DNA of 64,000 nt from Taeniopygia guttata (Eukaryota): the NCBI RefSeq assembly GCF_048771995.1, contig NC_133041.1:4727324-4791323 (forward strand). The letters are read 5' to 3'. Position numbers and translations under genes: made by a program. The notes below the pieces were generated by a model. That model was not told the DNA's origin and searched no databases. It saw only the letters and a program-made list of their open reading frames with translations. Of the stretch, positions 2,511 to 62,610 are shown piece after piece (positions within the stretch are counted from its first letter, which is position 1; every line of letters begins with the position of its first letter).

Positions 2511-4600
2511 GAGCCACTGACCCAAAATACCGCGGTTTCGGCCCAAAATTACCTGCTCTGCACACAAAATTCCACTTCTGGGACCAAAATTCCCTTTTAT
2601 AGACCCAAAATTCGATTTTTGGGACCAAAATTCCCTTCTCTGGACCCCAAATCCCGGTTTTTGCACCCAAAATTCCCTTCTCTGGACACAAAATTCCGTT
2701 TTTTGGGACCAAAATTCCCTGCTCTGCACACAAAATTCTGTTTTTTGGGACCAAAATTACCTTCTCTGGACACAAAATTCAATTTTTGGGACCAAAATTC
2801 CCTTGTATAGACCCAAAATTCGATTTTTTGGCTCCAAAAATCTGCCTTTTTGGGATTAAAATTCCCTTTTATAGACCCAAAATTCGATTTTTTTGCCCTC
2901 AAAATTTAATTTTTTTTGGGAACAAAATTTACTTTTATAGACCCAAAATTCGATTTTTTACACCCAAAATTTCATTTTTTAGACCCAAAATTCCCTTTTA
3001 CAGGCACAAAATCGGACTTTCTGGGCCCAAAATTCCCTTTTATAGACCCAAAATTCGATTTTTTACACCCAAAATTTCATTTTTTTAGACCCAAAATTCC
3101 CTTTTACAGGCACAAAATCGGACTTTCTGGGCCCAAAATTCCCTTTTATAGGCACAAAATTGGGATTTTTTACACCCAAACTTCCTTTCTCTGGACACAA
3201 AATTCCGATTTTTGGGACCAAAATTCCCTACTCTAGACACAAAATTCCACTTTTTGGGACCAAAATTCAATTTTTTGGGCCCAAAATTCCCTTTTCTGAA
3301 CACAAAATTCCATTTTTGGCTCCAAAATCTGACTTTTTGGGATTAAAATTCCCTTTTATAGACCCGAAATTCGATTTTTTAGCTCCAAAATCTGATTTTT
3401 TGGGATTAAAATTCCCTTTTATAGACACAAAATTCGACTTTTTGGCTCCAAAATCTGAATTTTTGGGATTAAAATTCCTCTTTTTGTGTCCAAAATTCCC
3501 TTTTATAGGCACAAAATTTGGATTTTTTGGACCAAAATTTGCTTTTATAGACCCAAAGTTTCATTTTTTGGGCCCAAAATTCCTTTTTATAGGCACAAAA
3601 TTGGATTTTTTGGGCTCAAAATTGGATTTTTTTCCCCAGGTACGAGGTGGACGACATCGACGAGGAAGGCAAAGAGTGAGCAATGAAAAACCCCAAAAAT
3701 TTCATTTAAAATGCCCCAAAACCCCCTCAAACCACCCCAAAAAACCCCAAAATTTGCCCATAAAAATCCCATTTTCCCCCAATTTTCCCCCATAAAAATC
3801 CCAATTTTCCTTCATTTCCCCCCAGATTTTCCAACATAAAAATCACATTTTTTCCTTCCAAAAAAAATCCCAATTTCCCCGCATTTTACCCCCAAAAATC
3901 CTAATTTTCCCCCAACTACCCGCCCAAAAATGCCAAATTTCCCCCATAAAAATCCCAATTTTTCCCCAGTTACCCCCAAAATATTCCTCAAATTTTCCCC
4001 ATAAAACCCCCAAATTTTCCCCATAAAACCCCCAAATTTTCCCAAATTACTCCCAAAATATTCCTCAAATTTTCCCCATAAAACCCCCAAATTTTCCCAA
4101 AAAAATCCCAAATTTTCACAAAAAAAATCAAATTTCCCATTTCCCACCAAATTTTCCCCCCAAAAAATCAAATTTCCCCCCATTTCCCACCAAATTTTCC
4201 CCCCAAAAAATCAAATTTTCCCATTTCCCCCCAAATGTTGCCCAAATTTTCCCAATAAAACCCTCCAAATTTTCCCCCCAACAAATCAAATTTTTCCCCT
4301 ATTCCCCCCGCAAATTTTCCCCAATTTTTCCCCATAAAACCCCCCAAATTTTCCCCCCAAAAATCAAATTTTCCCCCCAAATTTTCCATATTTTTTCCCC
4401 AAAAAAATCAAATTTTTCCCTCATTTCCCTGCAATTCCCCCCCACTTTTCCCCCATAAAAATCACAATTTCCCCCCCATTTTTCCCCATAAAACCCCCAT
4501 TTTCCCGCTGTTTCTCACCAAATTTTCTGCGTATTTTCCCTATAACCCCCAATTTCTCCCCGATTTTCCCAAACCCGCCGTTTTTCGCCCCAAACCGCAG
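2511..4600. repeat. Two short-unit satellites filling SGF29 introns: a roughly 22-bp unit acccaaaattcccttttatag (2511-3639) and ccccataaaacccccaaattttcc (3676-4600)
   Basis: Direct periodicity. Confidence 0.85.
3640..3675 (+). CDS. SGF29: SGF29 36-nt exon; encodes (K)YEVDDIDEEGKE
   Basis: Acceptor ccccag at 3638-3639, donor gtgagc at 3676. The phase links the two flanking exons exactly. Confidence 0.85.
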
Positions 4601-5784: not shown

Positions 5785-6550
5785 AATTTTGGGCAAAACC
5801 ACCCAAAATTTGGGAAAAAACACCCAAAATTTAAGAAGACCAACCTGGAATTAGGTAGGGAGGGAAAAAACGGGATTTGGAAAGGGGAAAATAAAGGAAA
5901 ATTTGATTTATTGGGGGGAAAAAATAAAAGGGATTTTAGCATGGAAAAAATGTGGGGAAAATTGATTTTTTGGAGGGAAACCTGGGATTTTTATTGGGAG
6001 AAATTGGGAATTTTATAAAGAGAAAATTGGGAATTTTTGGGGGTAAAACTGGCAAATTCATGCGGGAAAAAAAAGATGTTTTTATGGGGAAAAAAATGAA
6101 GTTTTTATAAGGGAGAATTGAGGATTTCTTTGGGGAATGATTGGGATTTATTTGAGGTGGGAAAATTTGGGATTTTTATGGGAAATAATTAAGAAATTTT
6201 AGGGGTAAACGTGGGATTTTTGTGGTGAAAATTGACAAAAAAAGTCTGAAAATCTGTGAAAAAATATCCCAAAATTTTTTTGGGAGGGGTTGGAGGATGG
6301 GAAGATCCCAAAAAATTATTTTTCGGGGGAAAAAAGTTGCAAAAAATGTAAAATAAGTTGAAAAAAATGGGGGGAAAAATGGGATTTTTGGCTCTCAAAA
6401 TGGCGGCCAAAAGTGGGAGGGGCAAAAAGGGAAATGACGTCATGGGGCGTGGCCAAAAGTCACACCCCTTTAGTTATAATTAAACAATTTATTAATTAAA
6501 AGTTATTTTATTGTAAATAAATAATTTAAAATGCAATTGCGGGTGTGGTT

Positions 6551-9986: not shown

Positions 9987-10585
9987 CTTTTCGGGGGACA
10001 AAATTGGTAAAATAAATTGATTTTTAAAATAATTAATAATTATTTAATAAAATTAATCAGAATTCCACATCGAAACCCTTTAAAACCCCCCAAATCTTCC
10101 CCAAAAATTCCCCACATTTGACTTTAATTTTCTTGAATTCCCCCAAAATCTCCCAAATATTTTTCAAATATCCCCAAATTTTTCCTGAACCCATCGGAAT
10201 GCCCCCAAAATATATTTTAAATCCTTTTAAATTCCCCCAAATTCCCCAATTAACCCCTTCAATCCCCCAAAATCCCCTTTTAACCCCCCCAAAATCCCCA
10301 TTTAATCCCTTTAAAGACCCCGAATCCCCCAAAATCCGCTTCTAAACCCCCCCAAATCCCCATTTATCCCTTTAAACCCCCCAAATCCCCATTTAACCCC
10401 TTCGAACCCCCCAAAACCCCCCAAAATCCCCTTTAAACCACCCAAAATCCCCTTCGAACCCCCCCAAATCCCTATTAATCCCTTTAAACCCCCCAAATAC
10501 CAATTTAATCCCTTCAAAATCCCCCAAATCCCCATTTAACCCCTTCAAACCCCCCAAATCCCCCCAAATCCCCCCAAACCCTGAC

Positions 10586-10758
10586 CAGGGCCCCCTCCCG
10601 CTGGTCTTTTTGGCCCCTCCGCCCCTCCGTCCCGCGTTGTGCTGCCGCAGCCGCCGCCGCGGGTCCACCGTGAACCCCACGTAGGCCGCGGAACCTCCGC
10701 CACGGGGGCCGCGGGCCCGGGGGGATCCGCGGGAGCGCAGCAGGTACACGGCGCGCAT
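10586..10758 (-). CDS. SLX1: SLX1 first coding exon (GIY-YIG nuclease domain); encodes [57 protein letters not shown](W)
   Basis: Minus ATG at plus 10756-10758, donor gtcagg. GIY-YIG motifs match human SLX1 (VYLL, YVGFT, QHN, SGRGPW). An in-frame upstream ATG at plus 10842 would add 28 aa that read through the promoter motif array, so the start codon is uncertain. Confidence 0.75.
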
Positions 10759-10789
10759 GGCGCCCACAATGCACCGCGGCGGGCGCCAC

Positions 10790-11230
10790 TTCCGCCCGCG
10801 CTCAACATGGCGGCGGTACGGCCTTGTTATCCCACAATCCATTGCGGGATTGTAGCTCCGCCTCTTTAAAATGGCGGCGGTACGGCCTAGCTATCCCACA
10901 ATCCATTGCGGGATTGTAGCTCCGCCTCTTTAAAATGGCGTCGGTTGTGTGCCTCCTTACCCACAATGCACCGCGGCACCACTTCCGCCCCCGCTCAAAA
11001 TGGCGGCGTTACGGCCTCGTTATCCCACAATCCATTGCGGAATTGTAGTTCCGCCTCTTCAAGATGGCGGCGGTTCAGTGTCTCGTTACCCACAATGCAC
11101 TGCGGCAGAATTGTAGTTTTATCTTTTAAAGATGGCGGCGGTTTGTGCCTCGTTACCCACAATGCACTGCGGCAGAATTGTAGTTTTATCTTTTAAAGAT
11201 GGCGGCGGTTTGTGCCTCGTTACCCACAAT
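10790..11230. promoter_or_regulatory. SLX1/BOLA2 bidirectional promoter core: about 7 tandem units of roughly 60 bp, each carrying a YY1 core (AAGATGGCGGCGG) and a ZNF143/SBS motif (for example AACTACAATTCTGCCGCAGTGCATTGTGGGTAA, read on the minus strand)
   Basis: The array lies between the SLX1 start (about 10758, minus) and the BOLA2 start (11571, plus). The ACTACAATTCCC...TGCATTG SBS consensus is recognisable in every unit, and AAGATGGCGGC is the YY1 consensus. Confidence 0.6.
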
Positions 11231-11540
11231 GCACTGCGGGAGGAAAAAAAAAATTATATTTAATGATAAGCATTATGTAGCATTAATTAGCTTGTACTTG
11301 CGGTGAGTGGTTAATAGGCGTTAATTAGTGATGAATTTATTTTAATTGGTGCTTAATAACCGCCTCGCTTACCCACAATGCCGCGTTTCACTTCCGCCTC
11401 TTTACCCACAAACCTTTGCGCCTTTTACTGTCTTCGCCTCGCTTACCCACAATTCCCTGCCTTACTTCCGCCTCATTACCCACAATGCATCGCTCTCCCC
11501 GCCCGTCCCGCCTCGCTTTCCCATCGAGCCCCGCGCAGCG

Positions 11541-11549
11541 CCGGAAGTG
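11541..11549 (+). promoter_or_regulatory. ETS/GABPA-type motif CCGGAAGTG, 22 bp upstream of the BOLA2 ATG
   Basis: Consensus match seen in the sequence. Its position is typical of TATA-less housekeeping promoters. Confidence 0.4.
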
Positions 11550-11570
11550 ACGCAGGGCCCCTGACCGGAA

Positions 11571-11636
11571 ATGGAGCCGCCCACGGCGGAGGAGCTGCGG
11601 GAGCGGCTCCGGGAGCGGCTCCAGGCCGAGCACGTG
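11571..11636 (+). CDS. BOLA2: BOLA2 exon 1; encodes MEPPTAEELRERLRERLQAEHV
   Basis: ATG at 11571, donor gtgcgt. Matches human BOLA2 MELSAEYLREKLQRDLEAEHV. It is head-to-head with SLX1, as in human. Confidence 0.85.
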
Positions 11637-11649
11637 GTGCGTCATTAAT

Positions 11650-13690
11650 TCATTAATTAGCGGCTAATTAGCGACCCCCGCCGGGTCATTGGGCTGGGCA
11701 GGGCGGTAATTAGCTGGGAGGGCGGTTAATGAGCGGTTGGGGGGCGTTAATTGGGCGGGGGAGGGGTAATTAGCATTAATTAACCTTAATTAGCGTTAAT
11801 TAAGATGATAATTCGTTTCGGGAGGGGTTAATTTGGGTTAATTAGGATTCTAATTAGGCGGGGGAGGGGTAATTCGAGGTAATTAAGGTGGTAATTAGGT
11901 TTGAGAGGGGTTAATTAGCGTTAACTATGATTCTAATTAGGTTTGGGACTGGTTAATTAGCCTTAATTAGCGTTAATTTGGGTTATTTAGGGTGCCAGTT
12001 AGGCGAGGGAGGGTTTAATTAGCGTTAATTAGGTTTAGGAGGGGTTAATTAGGGTTAATTTAGTTGCTAATTATTTTTTTGAGGGGTTAATTAGGGAGGT
12101 AATTAGCCTTTCAGATATGTTAATTAGTGGTTAAATTATCATTAATCAACGTTAATTAGCTGTTAATAAACGCTAATAACCATTTAGTGGGTGCCAATTA
12201 ACATTTAACAAGTGCTAATTATCTTCTTATTAATTATTTTTATATTTAATTATAAGCATTATGTAGCATTAATTAGCTTATACTTGCAGCGAGCGGTTAA
12301 TGAGCATTAATTAGCGGTAATTAGCGATGAATTTATATTAATTGGTGTTTATTAACAACTAATTAGCCGTTAACGAGTGCTAATCACCCCTTAATTAAAA
12401 TATTGTTCCTCATTAGCATGGGCGGGGGGGCGGGACGTTAATTGTTGCTAATTAATCAGCGCTAATTGCAGGAGGTGCAGGACTCGCCCCAGCTCTGCCC
12501 CGGAAGTTTCCGCGTTCTCGTCGTTTCCGGAACGTTCCGCGGCCTCAAAACGCTCCAGAGGCACCGGTGGGGGCGGGGCCTAATTTGCATTTAATTATAA
12601 AAGGGGTGGGGCCTAATTTGGGTTTAATTATTAAAGGGGCGGGGCTTAATTTGGATTTTAAATATAAAAAGGGCAGGGCTTAATTTGGGTTTAATTAAAA
12701 AGAGGCGGGGCTTTAAATGGGATTTAAATTAGAAAGGGGCGGGGCTTAATTTTGGTTTAATTGGGAAAAGGGGCGTGGCTTAATTTGAGGTTAATTGGGG
12801 AAATGGGTGGGGCTTAAATTGGGTTTAATTGGGAAAAGGGGCGGGGCTTAATTTGGATTTAAATATAAAAGGGGTGGGGCTTAATTTGGGGTTAATTGGA
12901 AAAGGGGCGGGGCTTAAATTGGGTTTTAATATAAAAGGGGTGGGGCTTAAATTTGGGTTAATCGGGAAAGGGGCGGGGCTTAATTTTGGTTTAATTGGGG
13001 AAAAGGGCGGGGCTTAATTTTGGTTTAATTGGGAAAAGGGGCGGGGCTTAATTTGCATTTAATTGGGGAAGGGGCGGGGCTTAATTTGGGTTTAATTTGG
13101 GAAAGGGGCGGGGCTTAAATTGGGTTTAATTGGGGAAGGGGCGGGGCTTAATTTGGGTTTAATTGGGAAAAGGGGCGTGGCTTATTTTGCATTTAATTAG
13201 AAGAGGGGTGGGGCTTGATTTGGGTTTAATTGGGAAAGGGGCGGGGTTTAATTTAGGTTTAAATCAGAAAATTATCAAGGCTTAATTTGGATTTAATTAA
13301 AAAAGGGGTGGGGCTTTATTTGAGTTTAATTGGGGAAAAGGGCGGGGCTTAATTTGGGTTTAATTGGGAAAATGGGCGGGGCTTAATTTGAGTTTAATTG
13401 GGAAAGGGGTGGGGCTTAATTTGGGTTTAATTAGGAAAAGAGGCGGGGCTTAATTTGAGGTTAATTGGGGAAAGGGGCGGGGCTTATTTTGGGTTTAATT
13501 GGGAAAAGGGGCAGGGCTTAATTTGGGTTTTAATTAGGGAAAGGGGCGGGGCTTGAATTGGGTTTAAATGGGGAAATGGGCGGAGCTTAATTTAAATTTA
13601 ATTGGGAAAAGGGGTGGGGCTTAATTTAAATTTAATTGGGAAAAGGGGCGGGGCTTACATTTGTCTTATATGGGAAAAGGGGCGGGGATT
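11650..13690. repeat. BOLA2 intron repeats: AT-rich ttaattag-type units (11650-12460) and a roughly 40-bp repeat of about 28 copies, aaaggggcggggcttaatttgggtttaattggg (12570-13690)
   Basis: Direct periodicity. Confidence 0.85.
12472..12566 (+). CDS. BOLA2: BOLA2 exon 2; encodes EVQDSPQLCPGSFRVLVVSGTFRGLKTLQRH(R)
   Basis: Acceptor ttgcag, donor GTgggg at 12567. Matches human EVEDTTLNRCSCSFRVLVVSAKFEGKPLLQRHR. Confidence 0.85.
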
Positions 13691-45549: not shown

Positions 45550-48312
45550 GTACTGGTTATACTGGTTTATACTGGTTTGTACTGGGAGGGACTGGGAGGG
45601 ACTGGGTTTTAGTCATTTTACCTTTTTTTTGCATTTTTTACTGGTTTTGACTGGTTTTAACTGGTTTAAAACTAGTTTATAACTGGTTTTATACTGGTTT
45701 ATACTGGTTTTATACTGGTTTATACTGGTTTATACTGGTTTATACTGGTTTATACCAGTTAGGACTGGTTAGGATTGGTTTATAGTGGTTTTATTGGTTT
45801 TTAATATTTTTTACCTTTTTTTGTGGTTTTTACTGGTTTTGACTGGTTTAAAACTGGTTTATAACTGGGTTTATACTGGTTTTATACTGGTTTATACTGG
45901 TTTGTACTGGTTTATAGTGGTTTATACTGGTTAGGACTGGTTAGGACCAGTTAGGATTGGTTTTTACTGGTTTTACTGGTTTATAATATTTTTTACCATT
46001 TTTTGTGGTTTTTACTGGTTTTTATTGGTTTTGACTGGTTTAAAACTGGTTTATACCTGGTTTTATACTGGTTTATACTGGTTTATACTGGTTTATACTG
46101 GGAGGGACTGGGTTGTACCGGTTTTACTGGGTTTTAGTCATTCTTACCTTTTTTTTTGCATTTTTTACTGTTTTTTACTGGTTTTTATTGGTTTTGACTG
46201 GTTTAAAACTGGTTTAAAACTGGTTTTATACTGGTTTATACTGGTTTGTACTGGTTTATACTGGTTTATACCGGTTAGGACCGGTTACGATTGGTTTATA
46301 CCGGTTTTACTGGGTTTTAGTAATTTTTTTTGCATTTTTTACTGGTTTTTACGGTTTTGACTGGTTTTAACTGGTTTAAAACTGGTTTATACTGGGTTTA
46401 TACTGGTCTGTACTGGTTTATACCAGTTAGGACTGGTTAGGATTGGTTTATACTGGTTTTACTGGTTTTTAATATTTTTTATCTTTTTTTTTGTGGTTTT
46501 TACTGGTTTTGACTGGTTTAAAACTGGTTTATAACTGGGTTTATACTGGTTTATACTGGTTTGTAGTGGTTTTACTGGGTTTTAGTAATCTTTACTTTTT
46601 TTTTCATTTTTTACTGGTTTTTACTGGTTTTGACTGGTTTAAAACTGCTTTATAACTGGTTTTATACTGGTTTTTACTGGTTTATACTGGTTTATACTGG
46701 TTTATACTGGTTAGGACTGGGAGGGACTGGTTTGTACTGGTTTTACTGGTTTTTAGTCATTTTTGCCTTTTTTTTTTCATTTTTTACTAGTTTTTACTGG
46801 TTTTTACTGGTTTTGACTGGTTTAAAACTGGTTTATAACTGGGTTTATACTGGTTTGTACTGGTTTATACTGGTTTATACTGGGAAGGAGCCCCGCCCCC
46901 GCCGCCATCTTGGATTGACCTTTTTGAAACTTTTCCCTCCAAATTTTGGCCTTTTTTCCCCAAAATTTCGGGATTTTCCCCCAAATTTGGAGCTCCCAGT
47001 CCCAAACTGGGAATTTCCTAATTCCAAACTGGGAATGTCCCAGTTCCAAACTGGGAATGTCCCAATTCCAAACTGGGAAGATCCCAATTAGCCTCAGTCC
47101 TTTGCCGCCATCTTGGATTGACCTTTTTGATCTTTTCCTCCAAATTTTGACTTTTTTTTCCCCCAAATTTTGGTTTTTTGTCCCAAATTTTGAGGTTCCA
47201 GTTCCAAACCGGGAATTTCCCAATTCCAAACTGGGAATGTCCCAATTCCGAACTGGGAAGGTCCCAATTAGCACCAGTCCTCTGCCGCCATCTTGGATTG
47301 ACCTTTTTGACCTCTTTTCCCTCCAAATTTTGACCTTTTTTCCCCAAAATTTTGGTTTTTCGTCCCAAATTTTGAGGTTCCGGTTCCAAACTGGGAATGC
47401 CCCAGTCCCAAACTGGGAATTTCCCAGTTCCTAACTGGGAAGGTCCCAATTAGCCTCAGTCCTCCGCCGCCATCTTGGATTGACCTTTTTGACCTCTTCC
47501 CTCCAAATTTTGACCTTTTTTTTCCCAAAATTTGGGGTTTTTTCCCCAAAATTTTACCCCCACGCCCCACCCCAGTCCCTCCCAGTTTGGAACCGGTCTG
47601 ATCCCAGTCTGGAACTGGGAATGTTCCAGTTGGGCCCACCCTTCCACCATCTTGGATTGACCTTTTCGAGCTCTTCCCTCCAAATTTCAACATTTTTCCT
47701 CCGTAATTTCCCATTTTTTCACCAAAATTTTGACTTTTTGCCCCCAAATTTTTCCCCCACGCCCCACCCCAGTCCCTCCCAGTTTGAACCGGTCTGATCC
47801 CAGTTTGGAACTGGGAATGTTCCATTTGGCCCCGCCCCTTCCGCCATCTTGGATTGACCTTTTCGAGCTTTTCCCTCCAAATTTCGACTTTTTTTTCCCC
47901 AAAATTTCAGGATTTTCCCCCAAATTCAGAGCTCCCAGTCCCAAACTGGGAATTACCCAGTCCCAAACTGGGAATTTCCCAGTTCCAAACTGGGAAGGTC
48001 CCAGTTAGCCCCAGTCCTCCGCCGCCATCTTGGATTGACATTTTTGAGCTCGTCCCTCCAAATTTCAACCTTTTTTTCCCAAAATTTGGGGCTTTTCCCC
48101 CAAAATTTTTCCCCCACGCCCCACCCCAGTCCCTCCCACTTTGGAACCAGTCTGATCCCAGTTTGGAACTGGGAATGTCCCAGTTGACCCCACCCCTGCC
48201 GCCATCTTGGATTGACCTTTTCGAGTTTTCCCTCCAAACTTCAACATTTTTCCTCCGTAATTTCCCATTTTTTTACCAAAATTTCGCCTTTTTCCCCCAA
48301 ATTCTTCCCCAG

Positions 48313-57938: not shown

Positions 57939-58533
57939 CTAATGGGCGGGGCCAGAAAGGGGGCGGGGTCAGAAAAAGGGGGCGGGGCCAAGGAGAGAGG
58001 GGATTTGGGGGGAATATTGGGGATTTTGGGGGGAATTTTGGGGATTTGGGGGAATATTGGGGATTTTGGGGGGAATTTTGGATATTTTGGGGGGAATATT
58101 GGAGATTTTGGGGATTTTTGGGAAAATTTGGGGGATTTTGGGGATTTTGAGGGCAATTTTGGGGGAATTTTGGAGATTTTGTGGGGGATTTTGGGAGAAT
58201 TTTGGGGGAAATTTGGACATTTTGGGGAGAATTTTGGGGACTTTGGGGTTAATTTTGGGGATTTTGGGGTGAATTTTGGGGACTTTGGGGGGAATTTTGG
58301 GGGGAATATTGGGGATTTTGGGGGGAATTTTAGGGATTTTGGGGGGAATTTAGGGATTTTGGGGGGATTTTGTGGGAATTTTGGGGATTTTGAGGTGAAT
58401 TTTGGGGATTTTTGGGGCCTTTTTTGCATCAAATTTTTAGTATTTCAGGGCGGATTTTCCCTCTGGATTTTTGGGTTGAATTTTGGGTATTTTGGGGGTG
58501 TTCAGGTCGGAATTTTGGGGGTTCCTCGCCCAC

Positions 58534-58638
58534 CCTTGAGCTTCTCCCCGAACATGGTGAGGAAGACGGTGAAGTTGATGGGCCCCGAGGCCTCTTTGAT
58601 CATCGCGTCCAACTCCTCGTTCTTCACGTTCAGCCGCC
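58534..58638 (-). CDS. MYLPF: MYLPF exon 4; encodes (G)[34 protein letters not shown](G)
   Basis: Minus acceptor ccccccag, donor gtgggc. Identical to vertebrate MLC2f. Confidence 0.92.
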
Positions 58639-59575
58639 CTGGGGGGGGCGGGGCCACATCGGGACACGCCCACCGGCCACACCCTCACAAGCCCCTCCCC
58701 CTCACTCAAAACCCCGCCCACTCCCGCCAATAAATTCACGCCACGCCCACTTTTGTGGCACCACACCCCTCTAAGCCACTCCCACCTCATTTAAATGCAC
58801 CACGCCCCTTCTTTAAGCCCCGCCCATTCACCCCACTAAGCCCCTCCCCTTTAAATTTAACCCTTTACGTCCTTCCCCTTCCTTTAACCCCTCTAAGCCC
58901 CTCCCCCTAAAAAGCTCCACCCATCTTTTAAGCCCCTCCCCTTTTCTTTAAGCCCCTCCCCTTTCCTTAAAGCCCCTCCCCTTTCCTTTAGGCCCCTCCC
59001 ATTTTCCTTTAAGCCCCTCCCCCTTCCTTTTAAGCCCCTCCCCTTTTATTTAAGCCCCTCCCCCTCATTAAATCCCCCTCATAACAAGCCCCGCCCATTT
59101 AACAAGCCCCTCCCCCTTTTTTGACCCCTCCAATTTAAGCCCCTCCCATTTTCCTTTAAGCCCCTCCCCTTTCCTTTAAGCCCCTCCCCCTTTATTTTAG
59201 GCCCCTCCCCTTTTATTTAAGCCCCTCCCCCTCATTAAATCCCCCTCATAACAAGCCCCTCCCCCTTTTTCAACCCCTCCCATTTAAGCCCCTCCCACTT
59301 TCATTTAAGCCCCTCCCCTTTCCTTTTAAGCCCCTCCCATTTCCTTTAAGCCCCTCCCACTTTCCTTTAGCCCCTCCCCTTTCCTTTAAGCCCCTCCCCT
59401 TCCCTTTAAGCCCCTCCCCTTTTCTTTAACCCCTTTCCTTTAAGCCCCGCCCCCTTTCCCATTCAAACCCCTCCCCTTAAGCCCCGCCCCTCATTTAGAA
59501 TGCAAATTTTCGGCCCCACGCCCACCCAAGCCACGCCCACCCGTGCCAGGCCCCGCCCCCTTTAGCCCCGCCCAC

Positions 59576-59651
59576 CCATGGCGGCGAAGGTCTCCCGCAG
59601 GTCATCCTTATCGATGATCCCGTCGCGGTTCTGATCGATCACCGTGAAGGC
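59576..59651 (-). CDS. MYLPF: MYLPF exon 3; encodes AFTVIDQNRDGIIDKDDLRETFAAM(G)
   Basis: Minus acceptor ccccccag, donor gtgggc. This is the Ca-binding EF-hand 1 (DQNRDGIIDKDD). Confidence 0.92.
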
Positions 59652-60764
59652 CTGGGGGGGTGGGGGAGGGGCGGGGGGCGTGGCCAAAGGGGGAGGGGCG
59701 TCAAGGCCACGCCCACCGCGAAATTTCGGTGAAAATTCCCAAAAAAACCCGGGAAAAATCGACGGAATTTTGGGGGTTTTGGGGGGTAAAATGCGCGAGG
59801 GAAGCTCCGCCCACTCCGCGCAAAGCTCCGCCCACTGAGTGCAAAGCTCCGCCCACTGAGCCCAAAGCTCCGCCCCCACCTCATTAAGCCCCTCCCCCAC
59901 CCATTTTTTCCCATTTTTCCGCCATTTTGGGGTCCGCGACCTTCGCCAATTTTGCCCCTCCCCCATTTTAAGCCCCTCCCCCACCTTTAGCCCCTCCCCT
60001 ACCTTTAGCCCATCCCCTTTTAGCCCCTCCCCCACCTCATTAAGCCCCTCCCCCACCTTTTATTTTCCCCATTTTTTCGCCATTTTGGGGTCCTCGACCT
60101 CCGCGATTTTTGCCCCTCCCCCATTTTAAGCCCCTCCCCCCTTTTAAGCCCCTCCCCCACATTAAGCCCCTCCCCTTTAAGCCCCTCCCCCACCTCATTA
60201 AGCCCCTCCCCCACCTTTTATTTTTCCCATTTTTTCGCCATTTTGGGGTCAGTGACCTCCACCATTTTTGCCCCTCCCCCATTTTAAGCCCCTCCCCCAT
60301 TTTAAGCCCCTCCCCCATTTTAAGCCCCTCCCCCACCTTCAGCCCCTCCCCCATTTTAGCCCCTCCCCCACCTTTTATTTTTCCCATTTTTCCGCCATTT
60401 TTGGGTCCTCGACCTTCGCCATTTTTGCCCCTCCCCCATTTTAAGCCCCTCCCCCATTTTAAGCCCCTCCCCCACCTTTAGCCCCTCCCCCATTTTAGCC
60501 CCTCCCCCACCTTTAATTTTTCCCATTTCTCCGCCATTTTGGGGTCCTCGACCTTCGCCATTTTTGCCCCTCCCCCCTTTTAGCCCCTCCCCCACCTCAT
60601 TAAGCCCCTCCCCCTCCCATTTTTTCCCATTTTTTTGCCATTTTGGGGTCCTCAACCGCCGCGTTTTTTGCCCCTCCCCCATTTTCAGCCCCTCCCCCAC
60701 CTCTGGCCCCTCCCCCCGCCCCTCCCCCACCCCCGCCCCTCCCCCACCCCCGCCCCTCCCCCAC

Positions 60765-60854
60765 CTCCTTGAACTCCTGGATCTGGGTCTGGTCGAACAT
60801 GGAGAAGACGTTGGAGCTGCCCTCGGCCGCGCGGCGCTTCGCCTTCTTGGGGGC
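60765..60854 (-). CDS. MYLPF: MYLPF exon 2; encodes [30 protein letters not shown]
   Basis: Minus acceptor gaatttcag, donor gtgggg. Contains the MLCK phosphorylation site ([11 protein letters not shown]). Confidence 0.92.
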
Positions 60855-62610
60855 CTGAAATTCGGGGGGGATTTGGGGCATTTTGGGGATTTTTGGGGAT
60901 TTTTGGGGAAATTTGGGGAATTCGGGAAATTTGGGGGATTTTTGGGGGGATAAAGGAAGATTTGGGGGGGATTTGGGGGGATTTTAGGGGGGATTTGGGG
61001 GGATTTTGGGGGAGATTTTGTGGCGGGGAAATTGGGGATTTTTGGAAGGATTTGGGGAATTTTTGGGGATTTTGGGAGGATTTTAGAGGATTTGGGATTA
61101 TTGGGGAATTTTGGGGGAATTTTGGATATTTTGGGGGATTTTTGGGAGGATAGGGGGATTTTGGGGAGATTTTGGGGATTTTGAGGGGATTTTGGGAGGA
61201 CTTTGGGGATTTTAGGGGGATTTAGGGGAAATTTGGGGGAATTTGGGGGAATTTGGGGGATTTTGGGGGATTTCGGGGGATTTAGGAAGATTTGACAGGG
61301 TTTTCGGGGAAATTTGGGGGATTTTAGGGGGATTTTGGGGGATTTTAGGGGATTTGGGGGGAATTTGGGGAATTTTATGGGGATTTTTGGAGGATTTTGG
61401 GGGATTTTTGAGGAATTTGAGGGAATTTTGGGAAGATTTTCGGGACTTTGAGGGGACTTAGGGGAATTTGGGGGAATTTTCAGGATTTTGGGGTATTTTG
61501 GGGGATTTGGGTTAATTTGGGGGGATTTAGGAAGATTTGAGGGGTTTTGGGGGGGATTTGGGGGATTTTTGTGGGGATTTTGGGAATTAGAGGGGATTTT
61601 GGGGATTTTGTGGTAATTTTGGGGGGATTTTGGGGGATTTGCAAAGATTTGAGGGATTAAAAATGGAAATTTTGTTGATTTTTTTGGGGCTATTTGGGCA
61701 TTTCTTTGGATTTTGGGGATTTTTTGGGGGGTCCTGCTTCAGATTTTTGGGATAAATTTCAGGGATTTTGGGGGATATTTTGGGGTGAATTTCAGGGATT
61801 TTGGGGAATATTTTGGGGTAAATTTCAGGTATTTTAGGGGAGATTTTTGGGGTCAATCCCGGGGATTTGGGGGAATATTTTGGGATAAATTTCTGTGATT
61901 TTTGGGGAATATTGTGGGGTAAATTTCAGGGATTTTCAGGGATATTTTTGGGGTAAATTTCAGGGATTTCGGGGATATTTTTGGGGTCAATCCCGCGGAT
62001 TTTGGGGGATATTTTTGGGGTCAATCCCGGGGATTTTGGGGTAAATTTCAGGGATTTCGGGGAATATTTTGGGGTAAATTTCCGGGATTTTGGGGGATAT
62101 TTTTGGGATAAATTTCCGGGATTTTAGGGAATATTTTTGGGGTCAATCCCGCGGATTTTGGGGAATATTTTTGGGGTCAATCCCGGGGATTTTGGGGGAT
62201 ATTTTTGGGGTCAATCCCGCGGATTTTGGGGAATATTTTGGGGTAAATTTCAGGTATTTTGGGGGATATTTTTGGGGTCAATCCCAGGGATTTTGGGGGA
62301 TATTTTGGGGTAAATTTCAGGGATTTCAGGGAATATTTTGGGGTAAATTTCCGGGATTTCGGGGAATATTTTGGGGTAAATTCCGGGGATTTTCAGGGAT
62401 ATTTTTGGGGTCAATCCCGCGGATTTTGGGGGATATTTTGGGGTAAATTTCCGGGATTTCGGGGAATATTTTGGGGTAAATTTCAGGGAATTTGGGGGAT
62501 ATTTTTGGGGTCAATCCCGCGGATTTTGGGGAATATTTTGGGGTCAATCCCGCGGATTTTGGGGGATATTTTTGGGGTCAATCCCGCGGATTTTGGGGTG
62601 CCCCCCTCAC

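What the first reader, a model, noticed from the sequence alone, without database searches (positions are those of the whole stretch)
10590..11640. SLX1/BOLA2 bidirectional promoter built from a tandemly amplified ZNF143(SBS)+YY1 cassette
The roughly 800 bp between the divergent SLX1 and BOLA2 start codons contain about 7 units of roughly 60 bp. Each unit carries AAGATGGCGGCGG (the YY1 core) and a full Staf/ZNF143 SBS-like element: ACTACAATTCTGCCGCAGTGCATTGTGGG or the variant CTACAATCCCGCAATGGATTGTGGG. These factors are typical of mammalian bidirectional promoters, but here the motif pair is repeated as a tandem array. An ETS motif CCGGAAGTG sits 22 bp upstream of the BOLA2 ATG.
Basis: partly seen in the sequence, partly recalled or inferred. 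Interest (0 to 1): 0.7.

Follow-up and report, generated by a model that had tools for sequence, protein, structure and literature searches.

The report
Tandem-repeat promoter between SLX1 and BOLA2
The 812 bases between two back-to-back housekeeping genes of a finch hold about a dozen repeated docking sites for common promoter proteins (ZNF143, YY1, ETS factors); this is a real, songbird-specific enlargement of an ordinary shared promoter, built from known parts, and no binding has been measured.

Summary
SLX1 (minus strand, ATG at 10758) and BOLA2 (plus strand, ATG at 11571) are head to head, 812 bp apart. Between them TRF finds a 64-bp repeat of 6.7 copies (10807-11241), and four shorter units follow at 11360-11500.

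There are 12 ZNF143-type sites, 7 YY1 cores and 5 ETS-type cores. Shuffled sequence gives about 0.04, 0.15 and 0.3.

One correction is needed. The ZNF143 site reads on the plus strand as the 18-bp SBS1 type (TACCCACAATGCAYYGCG). It is absent from every other species examined and does not form the THAP11-type SBS2 motif.

Ten orthologous loci show stepwise growth: turtle and bat have ETS sites only; gull 1 SBS; seriema 4; manakin 3; four oscines 7-12 SBS plus 3-9 YY1 cores.

Across 35 oscine sites, conservation stops at the end of the SBS. YY1-to-SBS spacing is fixed at 23-25 bp in three Passeroidea species, while the other spacers are randomised.

81% of the window is tandem repeat, so amplification itself is unremarkable here. 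Retention of the motifs is what stands out. Factor binding and TSS positions are untested.

Verdict: a new variant of a known kind, of moderate interest.

The parts
10582..10758 (-). SLX1 exon 1 (start codon 10758..10756; GIY-YIG N-terminus)
   Evidence: tblastn and translation; Pfam GIY-YIG and SLX1_C on the assembled exons
11571..11636 (+). BOLA2 exon 1 (MEPPTAEELRERLRERLQAEHV), with an in-frame stop 2 codons upstream of the ATG
   Evidence: Pfam BolA
10759..11570 (.). SLX1-BOLA2 intergenic region (812 bp), the presumed shared bidirectional promoter
10807..11241 (+). Distal tandem array: 64-67-bp units, 6.7 copies by TRF. With the partial first unit from 10751 it makes 8 units. Units 2/3/5 are 91-94% identical to each other and units 6/7 are 97% identical.
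10761..10778 (+). SBS1-type site 1 (CGCCCACAATGCACCGCG), 2 nt from the SLX1 start codon; orthologous in all five passerines
10829..10846 (+). SBS1-type site 2 (ATCCCACAATCCATTGCG)
10893..10910 (+). SBS1-type site 3 (ATCCCACAATCCATTGCG)
10958..10975 (+). SBS1-type site 4 (TACCCACAATGCACCGCG; 0 mismatches to the 19-nt consensus; 15/18 to the validated SBS1 probe)
11022..11039 (+). SBS1-type site 5 (ATCCCACAATCCATTGCG)
11087..11104 (+). SBS1-type site 6 (TACCCACAATGCACTGCG; 0 mismatches)
11154..11171 (+). SBS1-type site 7 (TACCCACAATGCACTGCG; 0 mismatches)
11221..11238 (+). SBS1-type site 8 (TACCCACAATGCACTGCG; 0 mismatches); this unit is cut off by the AT-rich insert
10804..11206 (+). Span holding seven YY1 cores (AANATGGCGKC) at 10804, 10868, 10932, 10997, 11061, 11129 and 11196. 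Each lies 24-25 bp (ATGG to CCC) upstream of the next SBS.
11042..11184 (-). Span holding three inverted ACTACAAT boxes (11042-11049, 11110-11117, 11177-11184). They lie 3' of the SBS on the opposite strand and are lineage-specific, so this is not an SBS2 arrangement.
10787..10795 (-). ETS-type core GCGGAAGTG (unit 1), oriented toward SLX1. A second copy is at 10980-10988 (unit 4).
11254..11358 (.). AT-rich insert that splits the array; about 90% identical to BOLA2 intron 1 at 12240-12350
11360..11500 (+). Proximal short-unit array (33-41 bp). SBS-like sites at 11370, 11403, 11444 and 11477 alternate with CACTTCCGCC / TACTTCCGCC ETS-type cores; there is no YY1. It aligns with the 39-bp units of Cariama and with the proximal units of the other passerines.
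11541..11549 (+). Proximal ETS site CCGGAAGTG. The GGAAGTGACG core is invariant in 7 birds and is also present in the turtle.

Best explanation
The 812 bp between SLX1 and BOLA2 is the shared bidirectional promoter of two housekeeping genes.

**How it was built.** In songbirds it has been enlarged by repeated tandem duplication of a short regulatory cassette. In this finch the cassette is a YY1 core (AARATGGCGGCGG), a 13-nt linker (..GCCTCGKTA), an 18-bp SBS1-type ZNF143 site (TACCCACAATGCAYYGCG), and a free spacer that in older units holds an ETS/GABP-type site (CACTTCCGCC).

**Layout.** Eight such units lie on the SLX1 side. Four older, shorter SBS+ETS units and a deeply conserved GGAAGTGACG ETS element lie on the BOLA2 side.

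**Proposed mechanism (inferred).** ZNF143 (or ZNF76), YY1 and a GABP-like ETS factor occupy the array. In human cells these are the three DNA-binding partners found at HCFC1-bound CpG-island promoters. They stimulate initiation in both directions from core promoters close to each ATG. The central copies act as a built-in upstream enhancer.

**Origin and maintenance.** The copies arose by the same slippage or unequal-exchange process that fills 81% of this window with tandem repeats. The binding sites, but not the spacers, have since been kept by selection.

**Shown:** anatomy, motif matches, enrichment, cross-species retention, fixed YY1-SBS spacing, lineage-specific turnover.

**Inferred:** factor occupancy, TSS positions, effect on expression, selection.
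For: **Gene arrangement.**

**Array.**

**Motif match and enrichment.**
- 12 SBS on the plus strand against 0.04 in shuffles.
- 7 YY1 cores against 0.15.
- 5 ETS-type cores against 0.28.

**SBS definition and validated probe.** PMC3082894 and PMC3627581. All 12 sites have CCCR at positions 3-6 and C at position 12.

**Literature on the factors.**
- An SBS alone drives bidirectional transcription, and SBS are 2.4-fold enriched in human bidirectional promoters (PMC3082894).
- ZNF143, GABP and YY1 motifs are the three motifs under HCFC1 peaks (PMC3668359).
- ZNF143 stimulates initiation, and the YY1 motif sits just downstream of TSSs (bioRxiv 10.1101/2024.05.13.594008).

**Conservation.**
- The orthologous region in Vidua, Zonotrichia and Aphelocoma holds 7-8 consensus SBS matches (7-10 CCCACAA-type units) and 3-9 YY1 cores, all on the same strand.
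- The only 7- and 8-mers repeated at least twice in all four oscines are the SBS core, GCCTCG, ATGGCGG and ACTTCCGCC, with none or at most a few copies on the reverse strand.
- In a logo of 35 oscine sites, information content falls to about 0 right after the terminal GCG.
- Pairwise identity is 0.80 in the SBS against 0.26-0.35 in the next 18 bp.
- In Vidua, TRF no longer detects a repeat, yet 7 SBS persist.
- YY1-to-SBS spacing is 23-25 bp in finch, Vidua and Zonotrichia, whereas SBS-to-YY1 spacing varies from 36 to 71 bp.

**Stepwise history.**

**Turnover.** Within-species unit identity of 91-97% exceeds between-species identity of 75-85%.
Against: - No binding, accessibility or TSS data exist for this locus, and JASPAR matrices were not available offline.
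- 81% of the window is tandem repeat, so amplification needs no adaptive explanation.
- YY1 cores also occur in an intronic 182-197-bp array at 46.9-48.2 kb, so a YY1 core inside a repeat is not in itself a mark of a promoter.
- In human cells, extra SBS1 copies did not raise the ZNF143 ChIP signal, unlike SBS2 (PMC3627581).
- ZNF143 bound downstream of a TSS can act as a roadblock. Site 1 lies 2 nt from the SLX1 ATG, so it must be transcribed.
- The identity contrast is partly inflated, because 10 of the 18 SBS positions were used as the search anchor. The unanchored 3' GCG is the unbiased part.
- Each clade is represented by one species.
Confidence: 0.62

Rival explanations
1. Neutral by-product. 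Only the ancestral proximal elements work: the SBS and ETS next to each ATG. The central copies are redundant passengers produced by the regional tandem-repeat machinery. They look conserved because they are repeatedly re-copied from functional seed units.
For: - 81% of the window is tandem repeat.
- Satellites such as GTACTGGTTT, GAG tracts and an intron-derived AT-rich block have invaded the same intergenic region in every passerine.
- Gull, seriema and turtle manage with 140-220 bp.
- Central units are young and lineage-specific.
- Extra SBS1 copies did not raise ChIP signal in human cells.
Against: - In Vidua and Zonotrichia the units are old enough that the spacers are at random identity and TRF barely detects or fails to detect the repeat. 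Even so, 7-8 SBS with intact 3' GCG, and the 23-25-bp YY1-SBS spacing, survive.
- Conservation stops at the SBS boundary rather than at a duplication boundary.
Confidence: 0.27
2. One reading: each unit is a full ACTACA-containing SBS2/M4 element. It recruits THAP11 and HCFC1 together with ZNF143.
For: ACTACAAT is present three times on the minus strand. The minus strand of unit 5 reads ACTACAATTCCGC, which matches 9 of the 11 specified positions of the THAP11 site.
Against: - ACTACA is on the opposite strand and 3' of the SBS. SBS2 requires it immediately 5' on the same strand.
- On the minus-strand reading, the invariant CCCR core is CCGC or CTGC.
- The THAP11-site and M4 patterns are at chance level in the window.
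- ACTACAA is absent from all nine orthologous regions.
Confidence: 0.04
3. The repeated CCCACAATGC element is bound by some other factor, for example a SOX-type protein through ACAATG/CATTGT, or a bird-specific zinc-finger protein. Alternatively the array acts as a chromatin boundary rather than a promoter.
For: - ACAAT/ATTGT half-sites form inverted repeats in finch units 2, 3 and 5-7.
- The conserved 5' linker GCCTCGKTA has no assigned factor.
Against: - The conserved block spans the whole 18-bp SBS, including the CCC and the terminal GCG, and not only ACAAT.
- The inverted ATTGTAG arm is finch-specific.
- ZNF143 has been shown to act independently of CTCF and looping (PMC11687419).
Confidence: 0.07

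Closest known systems
Human ZNF143/Staf-dependent bidirectional promoters (SBS1 type; Anno et al. 2011, PMC3082894)
   Same: Head-to-head genes less than 1 kb apart, no TATA box, and an 18-bp SBS with CCCR at positions 3-6 and C at position 12. An SBS is sufficient for transcription in both directions.
   Different: Human promoters carry about 1.5 SBS each (601 in 392 promoters). Here there are 12 co-oriented copies generated by tandem duplication. The turtle and bat orthologues of this very promoter have no SBS.
HCFC1-associated promoter motif set ZNF143/THAP11 + GABP + YY1 (Michaud et al. 2013, PMC3668359)
   Same: The same three motif classes co-occur in one promoter.
   Different: In human promoters they occur singly or in small numbers. 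Here they are joined in one repeated cassette with fixed YY1-SBS spacing. The THAP11 (ACTACA) half is missing.
Peg3-DMR tandem array of about 10 YY1 sites beside the Peg3/Usp29 bidirectional promoter (PMC4196374)
   Same: A tandem repeat whose only conserved part is a transcription-factor site. It sits next to a bidirectional promoter, and its copy number is maintained across species.
   Different: It lies in an intron, is homotypic (YY1 only), is linked to imprinting and DNA methylation, and is mammalian.
Mouse LINE-1 Tf 5'UTR monomers (PMC11602158)
   Same: A promoter made of tandem monomers, each with a YY1 site. Distal monomers act synergistically as enhancers of the proximal one.
   Different: The monomers are about 200 bp and belong to a transposon. 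The promoter is unidirectional and has no ZNF143 site.
SBS2 / M4 / THAP11 site (ACTACANNTCCCA; PMC3627581, PMC5006282)
   Same: It shares the TCCCA..ATGC core and, in three finch units, the string ACTACAAT.
   Different: The required same-strand 5' position of ACTACA is not met.

Membership tests
ZNF143/Staf binding site, SBS1 type | 18-bp element with CCCR at positions 3-6 and C at position 12 (PMC3082894) | tested here: met
   All 12 anchored sites read xxCCCAxxxxxC.
ZNF143/Staf binding site, SBS1 type | Overall match to the SBS consensus or a validated site, including the 3' half AYYGCG | tested here: met
   - 12 plus-strand matches with 2 or fewer mismatches to the 19-nt IUPAC consensus, which was recalled from memory (Schaub et al. 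1997); shuffles give 0.04.
- 15/18 identity to the probe TTCCCATTATGCACCGCG, Kd 1.36 nM.
- Unit 9 has a shifted 3' half and fails.
ZNF143/Staf binding site, SBS1 type | Significant score with the curated JASPAR or TRANSFAC matrix | not tested
   No matrix library is present on the sandbox, and the paper supplements are not held.
ZNF143/Staf binding site, SBS1 type | Occupancy by ZNF143 in vivo or in vitro | not testable with these tools
   Needs ChIP, CUT&RUN or EMSA with the avian protein.
SBS2 / THAP11 site / M4 motif | ACTACAN immediately 5' of TCCCA on the same strand (ACTACANNTCCCA; ACTAYRNNNCCCR) | tested here: not met
   There is one 2-mismatch hit in the region, and window counts are at or below the shuffle mean. 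ACTACAAT is on the opposite strand, 3' of the SBS.
YY1 binding site | GCCAT core within AAnATGGCGGC (PMC4196374 gives GGCGCCATCTT; PMC11602158 gives the GCCAT core) | tested here: met
   7 sites against 0.15 in shuffles. Three are exact CAAGATGGCGGC or AAGATGGCGGC.
YY1 binding site | Occupancy by YY1 | not testable with these tools
   No ChIP data. Identical cores also occur in an intronic satellite at 46.9-48.2 kb.
ETS/GABP site | CCGGAAGTG-type core (consensus from general knowledge) | tested here: met
   One exact match (11541) and three 1-mismatch GCGGAAGTG sites, against 0.28 in shuffles. GGAAGTGACG is invariant in 7 birds.
Bidirectional promoter | Two genes in inverted orientation with starts less than 1 kb apart (PMC3082894) | tested here: met
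   812 bp between the two ATGs. The arrangement is conserved in all ten species.
Bidirectional promoter | Divergent TSSs mapped inside the interval | not testable with these tools
   No CAGE, RACE or PRO-cap data. The only hint is that NCBI 113-aa BOLA2 models in three passerines start at an ATG inside a proximal SBS.
Tandem repeat (minisatellite) | Head-to-tail copies of one unit | tested here: met
   TRF: period 64, 6.7 copies, 80% matches.
Tandem-monomer promoter (L1 Tf type) | Each monomer has promoter activity and monomers act synergistically | not testable with these tools
   Needs reporter assays.

The most novel reading that the evidence does not exclude
Oscine songbirds have kept, for tens of millions of years, a selected 'super-promoter'. 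It is a turnover-prone tandem array of a fixed-geometry YY1-linker-ZNF143 module, with a conserved GCCTCGKTA linker standing where mammals have the THAP11 box.

On this reading, the multiplicity of the array is needed to hold two essential genes open inside a chromosome region that is about 80% satellite DNA. Site number would then track local repeat load. The linker would mark a new partner or a new spacing rule for ZNF143.
Probability: 0.15. Interest if true: 0.6.

Novelty: new variant of a known kind. Interest (0 to 1): 0.4.

Why it matters
**If the sites are occupied.** This locus would be a natural titration series of one promoter: 0, 1, 3-4 and 7-12 ZNF143 sites, with or without YY1, across turtle, gull, seriema, manakin and oscines. 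It could be used to ask how site number and spacing set the output and directionality of a housekeeping bidirectional promoter. It could also show how regulatory DNA survives in extremely repeat-rich avian chromosome regions. It further gives a clean case of binding-site turnover, in which the sites are kept while the repeat that created them decays.

**If the extra copies are neutral.** The locus becomes a caution that tandem-repeat-rich genomes can inflate motif counts without any change in function.

Tried and rejected
- **JASPAR or other PWM scan:** no matrices on the sandbox, and the supplements of the two NAR papers are not held. IUPAC consensus, a validated probe and shuffles were used instead.
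- **Loose consensus over the whole window:** the 19-nt SBS consensus at 3 mismatches picks up the CCCCAAAATCCCC satellites (about 90 hits outside the region). Only matches with 2 or fewer mismatches, or the core plus GCG, are meaningful here.
- **Orthologue look-ups:** the zebra finch (P0001), Lonchura (P0005) and Myiozetetes (P0014) BOLA2 proteins are not on record. No second estrildid or second suboscine could therefore be compared, and copy-number polymorphism could not be examined.
- **Hidden RNA gene:** Rfam gives only a sub-threshold mir-33 hit (25 bits against a gathering score of 50) on the repeat itself, taken as chance.
- **THAP11/M4 reading:** rejected.
- **ZNF143-CTCF looping or boundary idea:** set aside in view of PMC11687419.
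- **uORF or N-terminal extension of BOLA2:** in the window an in-frame TGA lies 2 codons before the ATG, so the array is not coding here.
- **Literature:** searches for a prior description found nothing relevant (ZNF143 + tandem repeat + bidirectional promoter; SLX1 + BOLA2 + bidirectional; zebra finch + ZNF143).
- **Helical phasing:** unit lengths of 64-67, 76-79 and 83-90 bp in different species show no common phase, so this was dropped.
Full report
**1. What is there**

The window is from an estrildid finch. The assembled BOLA2 protein is 98% identical to the Taeniopygia guttata entry and 88-90% identical to Vidua and Lonchura.

SLX1 exon 1 lies on the minus strand with its ATG at 10758. 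It translates to MRAVYLLRS...[16 protein letters not shown]...GRGPW. BOLA2 exon 1 lies on the plus strand at 11571-11636. Pfam confirms GIY-YIG plus SLX1_C for the first gene and BolA for the second. The interval between the two start codons is 10759-11570, 812 bp.

**2. The repeat**

TRF reports a 64-bp unit at 10807-11241 with 6.7 copies and 80% matches. A second, looser array lies at 11360-11523.

Splitting on the string CCCACAA gives 12 co-oriented units.
- Eight units are 64-68 bp, beginning at 10751. The first overlaps the SLX1 start codon.
- A 105-bp AT-rich block follows.
- Four units of 33-41 bp come next.

The AT-rich block (11254-11358) is about 90% identical to BOLA2 intron 1 at 12240-12350. 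It is a secondary insertion that splits the array.

Units 2, 3 and 5 are 91-94% identical to each other. Units 6 and 7 are 97% identical.

**3. Motif content**

*Strand of the ZNF143 site.* Each unit reads on the plus strand as T(A/T)CCCACAAT(G/C)CAYYGCG. The Staf/ZNF143 site is defined as an 18-bp element with CCCR at positions 3-6 and C at position 12 (PMC3082894). All 12 sites meet that definition. Unit 4 (TACCCACAATGCACCGCG) matches the SBS1 probe TTCCCATTATGCACCGCG at 15 of 18 positions. That probe binds the ZNF143 DNA-binding domain with a Kd of 1.36 nM (PMC3627581).

*Enrichment.* I used a 19-nt IUPAC consensus, YYWCCCRNMATSCMYYRCR, recalled from Schaub et al. 1997 and therefore resting on my own memory. 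Allowing 2 or fewer mismatches, the 812 bp hold 12 plus-strand matches. Dinucleotide shuffles give 0.04.

*YY1.* Seven units carry a YY1 core (AANATGGCGKC). Shuffles give 0.15.

*ETS.* ETS-type cores (GCGGAAGTG on the minus strand) occur in units 1 and 4 and in two of the short units. The exact CCGGAAGTG lies at 11541-11549, 22 nt before the BOLA2 ATG.

**4.

The strings ACTACAATTCTGCCGCAGTGCATTGTGGG and CTACAATCCCGCAATGGATTGTGGG are real. They are the reverse complements of units 6/7 and units 2/3.

In the ACTACA-containing SBS2 and the THAP11 site, ACTACAN lies immediately 5' of TCCCA on the same strand (ACTACANNTCCCA). Here ACTACAAT lies on the opposite strand, 3' of the SBS. On that strand the invariant CCCR core would read CTGC or CCGC.

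Pattern searches for ACTACANNTCCCA and ACTAYRNNNCCCR are at or below chance. Only one 2-mismatch hit falls in the region. ACTACAA is absent from the orthologous region of all nine other species.

The elements are therefore SBS1-type. In human cells SBS1 sites bind ZNF143 and ZNF76 but are not occupied by THAP11.

**5. Comparison across species**

Orthologous loci were fetched through BOLA2 proteins. The head-to-head SLX1/BOLA2 arrangement is present in all of them. The YY1 counts are those listed.

| Species | Gap (bp) | SBS | YY1 cores | ETS / other |
|---|---|---|---|---|
| Turtle (Carettochelys) | 185 | 0 | 0 | 3 tandem ETS units |
| Bat | 461 | 0 | 0 | 3 ETS |
| Gull (Larus) | ~140 | 1 | 0 | 2 ETS |
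| Swan (Cygnus) | 659 | 3 | 0 | 10 ETS cores, 7 RFX-like palindromes |
| Seriema (Cariama) | 217 | 4 (39-bp units) | 0 | - |
| Suboscine manakin (Corapipo) | 395 | 3 | 0 | four 18-bp ETS repeats |
| Scrub-jay (Aphelocoma) | 920 | 8-9 | 9 | 83-bp unit x 5.1 |
| Sparrow (Zonotrichia) | 952 | 8-10 | 4 | - |
| Indigobird (Vidua) | 809 | 7 | 3 | - |
| Finch (this window) | 812 | 12 | 7 | - |

- All SBS point toward BOLA2 in every species.
- The swan array is an independent one.

The BOLA2-proximal 150 bp aligns across seven birds, and GGAAGTGACG is invariant in it. The SBS abutting the SLX1 ATG is orthologous in all five passerines.

The simplest history has three stages: an ETS-only amniote promoter; gain of the SBS in birds; then gain of YY1 and large-scale amplification in oscines.

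**6. Evidence that the sites matter, and not the repeat**

- *Unbiased k-mer screen.* It lists the only 7- and 8-mers present at least twice in all four oscines. They are the SBS core, the flank GCCTCG, ATGGCGG and ACTTCCGCC. Reverse-strand copies are none or at most a few.
- *Logo of 35 oscine sites.* The consensus is GCCTCGnTACCCACAATGCAnTGCG. Information content drops to about zero right after the terminal GCG. That GCG was not part of the search anchor.
- *Pairwise identity.* It is 0.80 within the SBS against 0.26-0.35 in the next 18 bp. This contrast is partly inflated by the anchor.
- *Decay of the repeat.* In Vidua, TRF detects no repeat at all in this stretch, yet seven SBS remain. In Zonotrichia only 2.4 copies are still detectable.
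- *Spacing.* The distance from the YY1 ATGG to the next SBS CCC is 24-25 bp at the six finch sites measured. It is 23-25 bp in Vidua and Zonotrichia and in one scrub-jay unit. The other scrub-jay units have 47-48 bp, which is one extra sub-repeat of about 24 bp. The SBS-to-next-YY1 spacer varies from 36 to 71 bp.

The conserved module is therefore a block of about 45 bp: AAAATGGCGGCGGTTTTGCCTCGKTACCCACAATGCAYYGCG.

Central units are more alike within a species (86-97%) than between species (75-85%). The array therefore turns over by lineage-specific duplication.

**7. Context that tempers the finding**

TRF covers 81% of the 64-kb window. The figure is 29% for the compact seriema locus and 0% for the bat locus.

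Every passerine intergenic region also contains unrelated simple repeats: GTACTGGTTT, GAG tracts and T-rich tracts.

YY1 cores also occur in an intronic 182-197-bp array at 46.9-48.2 kb.

Tandem duplication is thus the regional norm. It does not need an adaptive origin.

**8. How it most likely works (inference)**

Human data give four relevant results:
- A single SBS can drive transcription in both directions (PMC3082894).
- ZNF143 stimulates initiation (bioRxiv 10.1101/2024.05.13.594008).
- ZNF143, GABP and YY1 motifs are the three motif classes under HCFC1 peaks at active CpG-island promoters (PMC3668359).
- Tandem YY1-bearing monomers act synergistically in the mouse L1 Tf promoter (PMC11602158).

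On that basis I propose the following. Core promoters lie near each ATG: SBS plus ETS on the SLX1 side, and SBS plus ETS plus GGAAGTGACG on the BOLA2 side. The central YY1-SBS modules act as a shared upstream activator.

Points against a simple dosage model:
- Extra SBS1 copies did not raise ZNF143 ChIP signal in human cells.
- ZNF143 bound downstream of a TSS can act as a roadblock.

The main rival, at about 0.27, is that the central copies are neutral passengers. The motif-delimited conservation in the older arrays argues against that, but it does not exclude it.

**9. Known or new**

The factors, the motif trio and the idea of tandem-repeat promoters are all known. The closest analogues are the Peg3-DMR YY1 array beside the Peg3/Usp29 bidirectional promoter (PMC4196374) and the L1 Tf monomers (PMC11602158).

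I found no description of a tandemly amplified heterotypic YY1-ZNF143 cassette, nor of this locus in birds. Human bidirectional promoters average about 1.5 SBS.

I file it as a new variant of a known kind, with interest about 0.4.

One point remains unexplained. The linker GCCTCGKTA is conserved and occupies the position of the mammalian ACTACAN box. It also precedes many YY1 cores.

Noticed in passing
window 1-64000: 81% of the window is covered by TRF-detectable tandem repeats (580 array calls). The orthologous seriema locus is 29% and the bat locus 0%. Introns of SLX1 and BOLA2 are greatly inflated compared with non-passerines: the BOLA2 gene spans about 2.3 kb here against 0.57 kb in Cariama.
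   Followed up: partly
window 46901-48208 (minus strand): About eight copies of a 182-197-bp unit, six with an exact AAGATGGCGGC and two with degenerate cores. The array lies just upstream of an internal CDIPT-like exon (about 48320). It is a second YY1-core array and appears to be intronic.
   Followed up: partly
window 11254-11358 and 12240-12350: The AT-rich (TTAATTAG-type) block that interrupts the promoter array is about 90% identical to a segment of BOLA2 intron 1. It begins right after an A10 tract.
   Followed up: yes
window 46006-46883 and elsewhere; L002 3725-3832; L001 ~3895-3920; L007 ~380-440: A 10-bp satellite, GTACTGGTTT, has 47 plus-strand copies in the window and none on the minus strand. 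It also sits inside the SLX1-BOLA2 intergenic region of Vidua, Zonotrichia and Corapipo, at a similar position between the distal and proximal motif clusters.
   Followed up: partly
L006 (Cygnus olor) 3342-4000: The swan intergenic region (659 bp) has its own repeated cassette: 10 minus-strand ETS cores, 7 RFX-like palindromes (GTTGCTAAGCAAC and variants) and 3 SBS-like sites, with no YY1. This is an independent amplification with a different motif mix.
   Followed up: partly
L001 4001-4078; proteins P0006, P0007, P0009: NCBI 113-aa BOLA2 models in Zonotrichia, Pseudopodoces and Agelaius start 25 codons upstream, at the ATG embedded in a proximal SBS (CACAATG). They translate the SBS unit (..IRLGTHK..). 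This is probably an annotation artefact, but it hints that transcripts start inside the array. In the window an in-frame TGA blocks this extension.
   Followed up: partly
L008 (Carettochelys) 2816-3000: The turtle SLX1-BOLA2 promoter consists of three tandem GGCGGAAGTGACGGAGACGAGAGGGGGAAG units. These are ETS sites only, with no SBS or YY1.
   Followed up: no
window 10234-10582 and 58000-62300: CCCCCAAAATCCCC-type satellites, including those in SLX1 intron 1, match the loose 19-nt SBS consensus at 2-3 mismatches. They would give false ZNF143 hits in a permissive scan.
   Followed up: yes
window 6397-6445: An isolated AAAATGGCGGC lies 38 bp from a perfect CRE palindrome, TGACGTCA, near the 3' end of SLX1. 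Its significance is unknown.
   Followed up: no
oscine SBS sites (window, L001-L003), positions -9 to -3 relative to CCC: The linker GCCTCGKTA is conserved 5' of nearly every SBS and of many YY1 cores. It stands where human SBS2 has ACTACAN, and no factor is assigned to it.
   Followed up: partly
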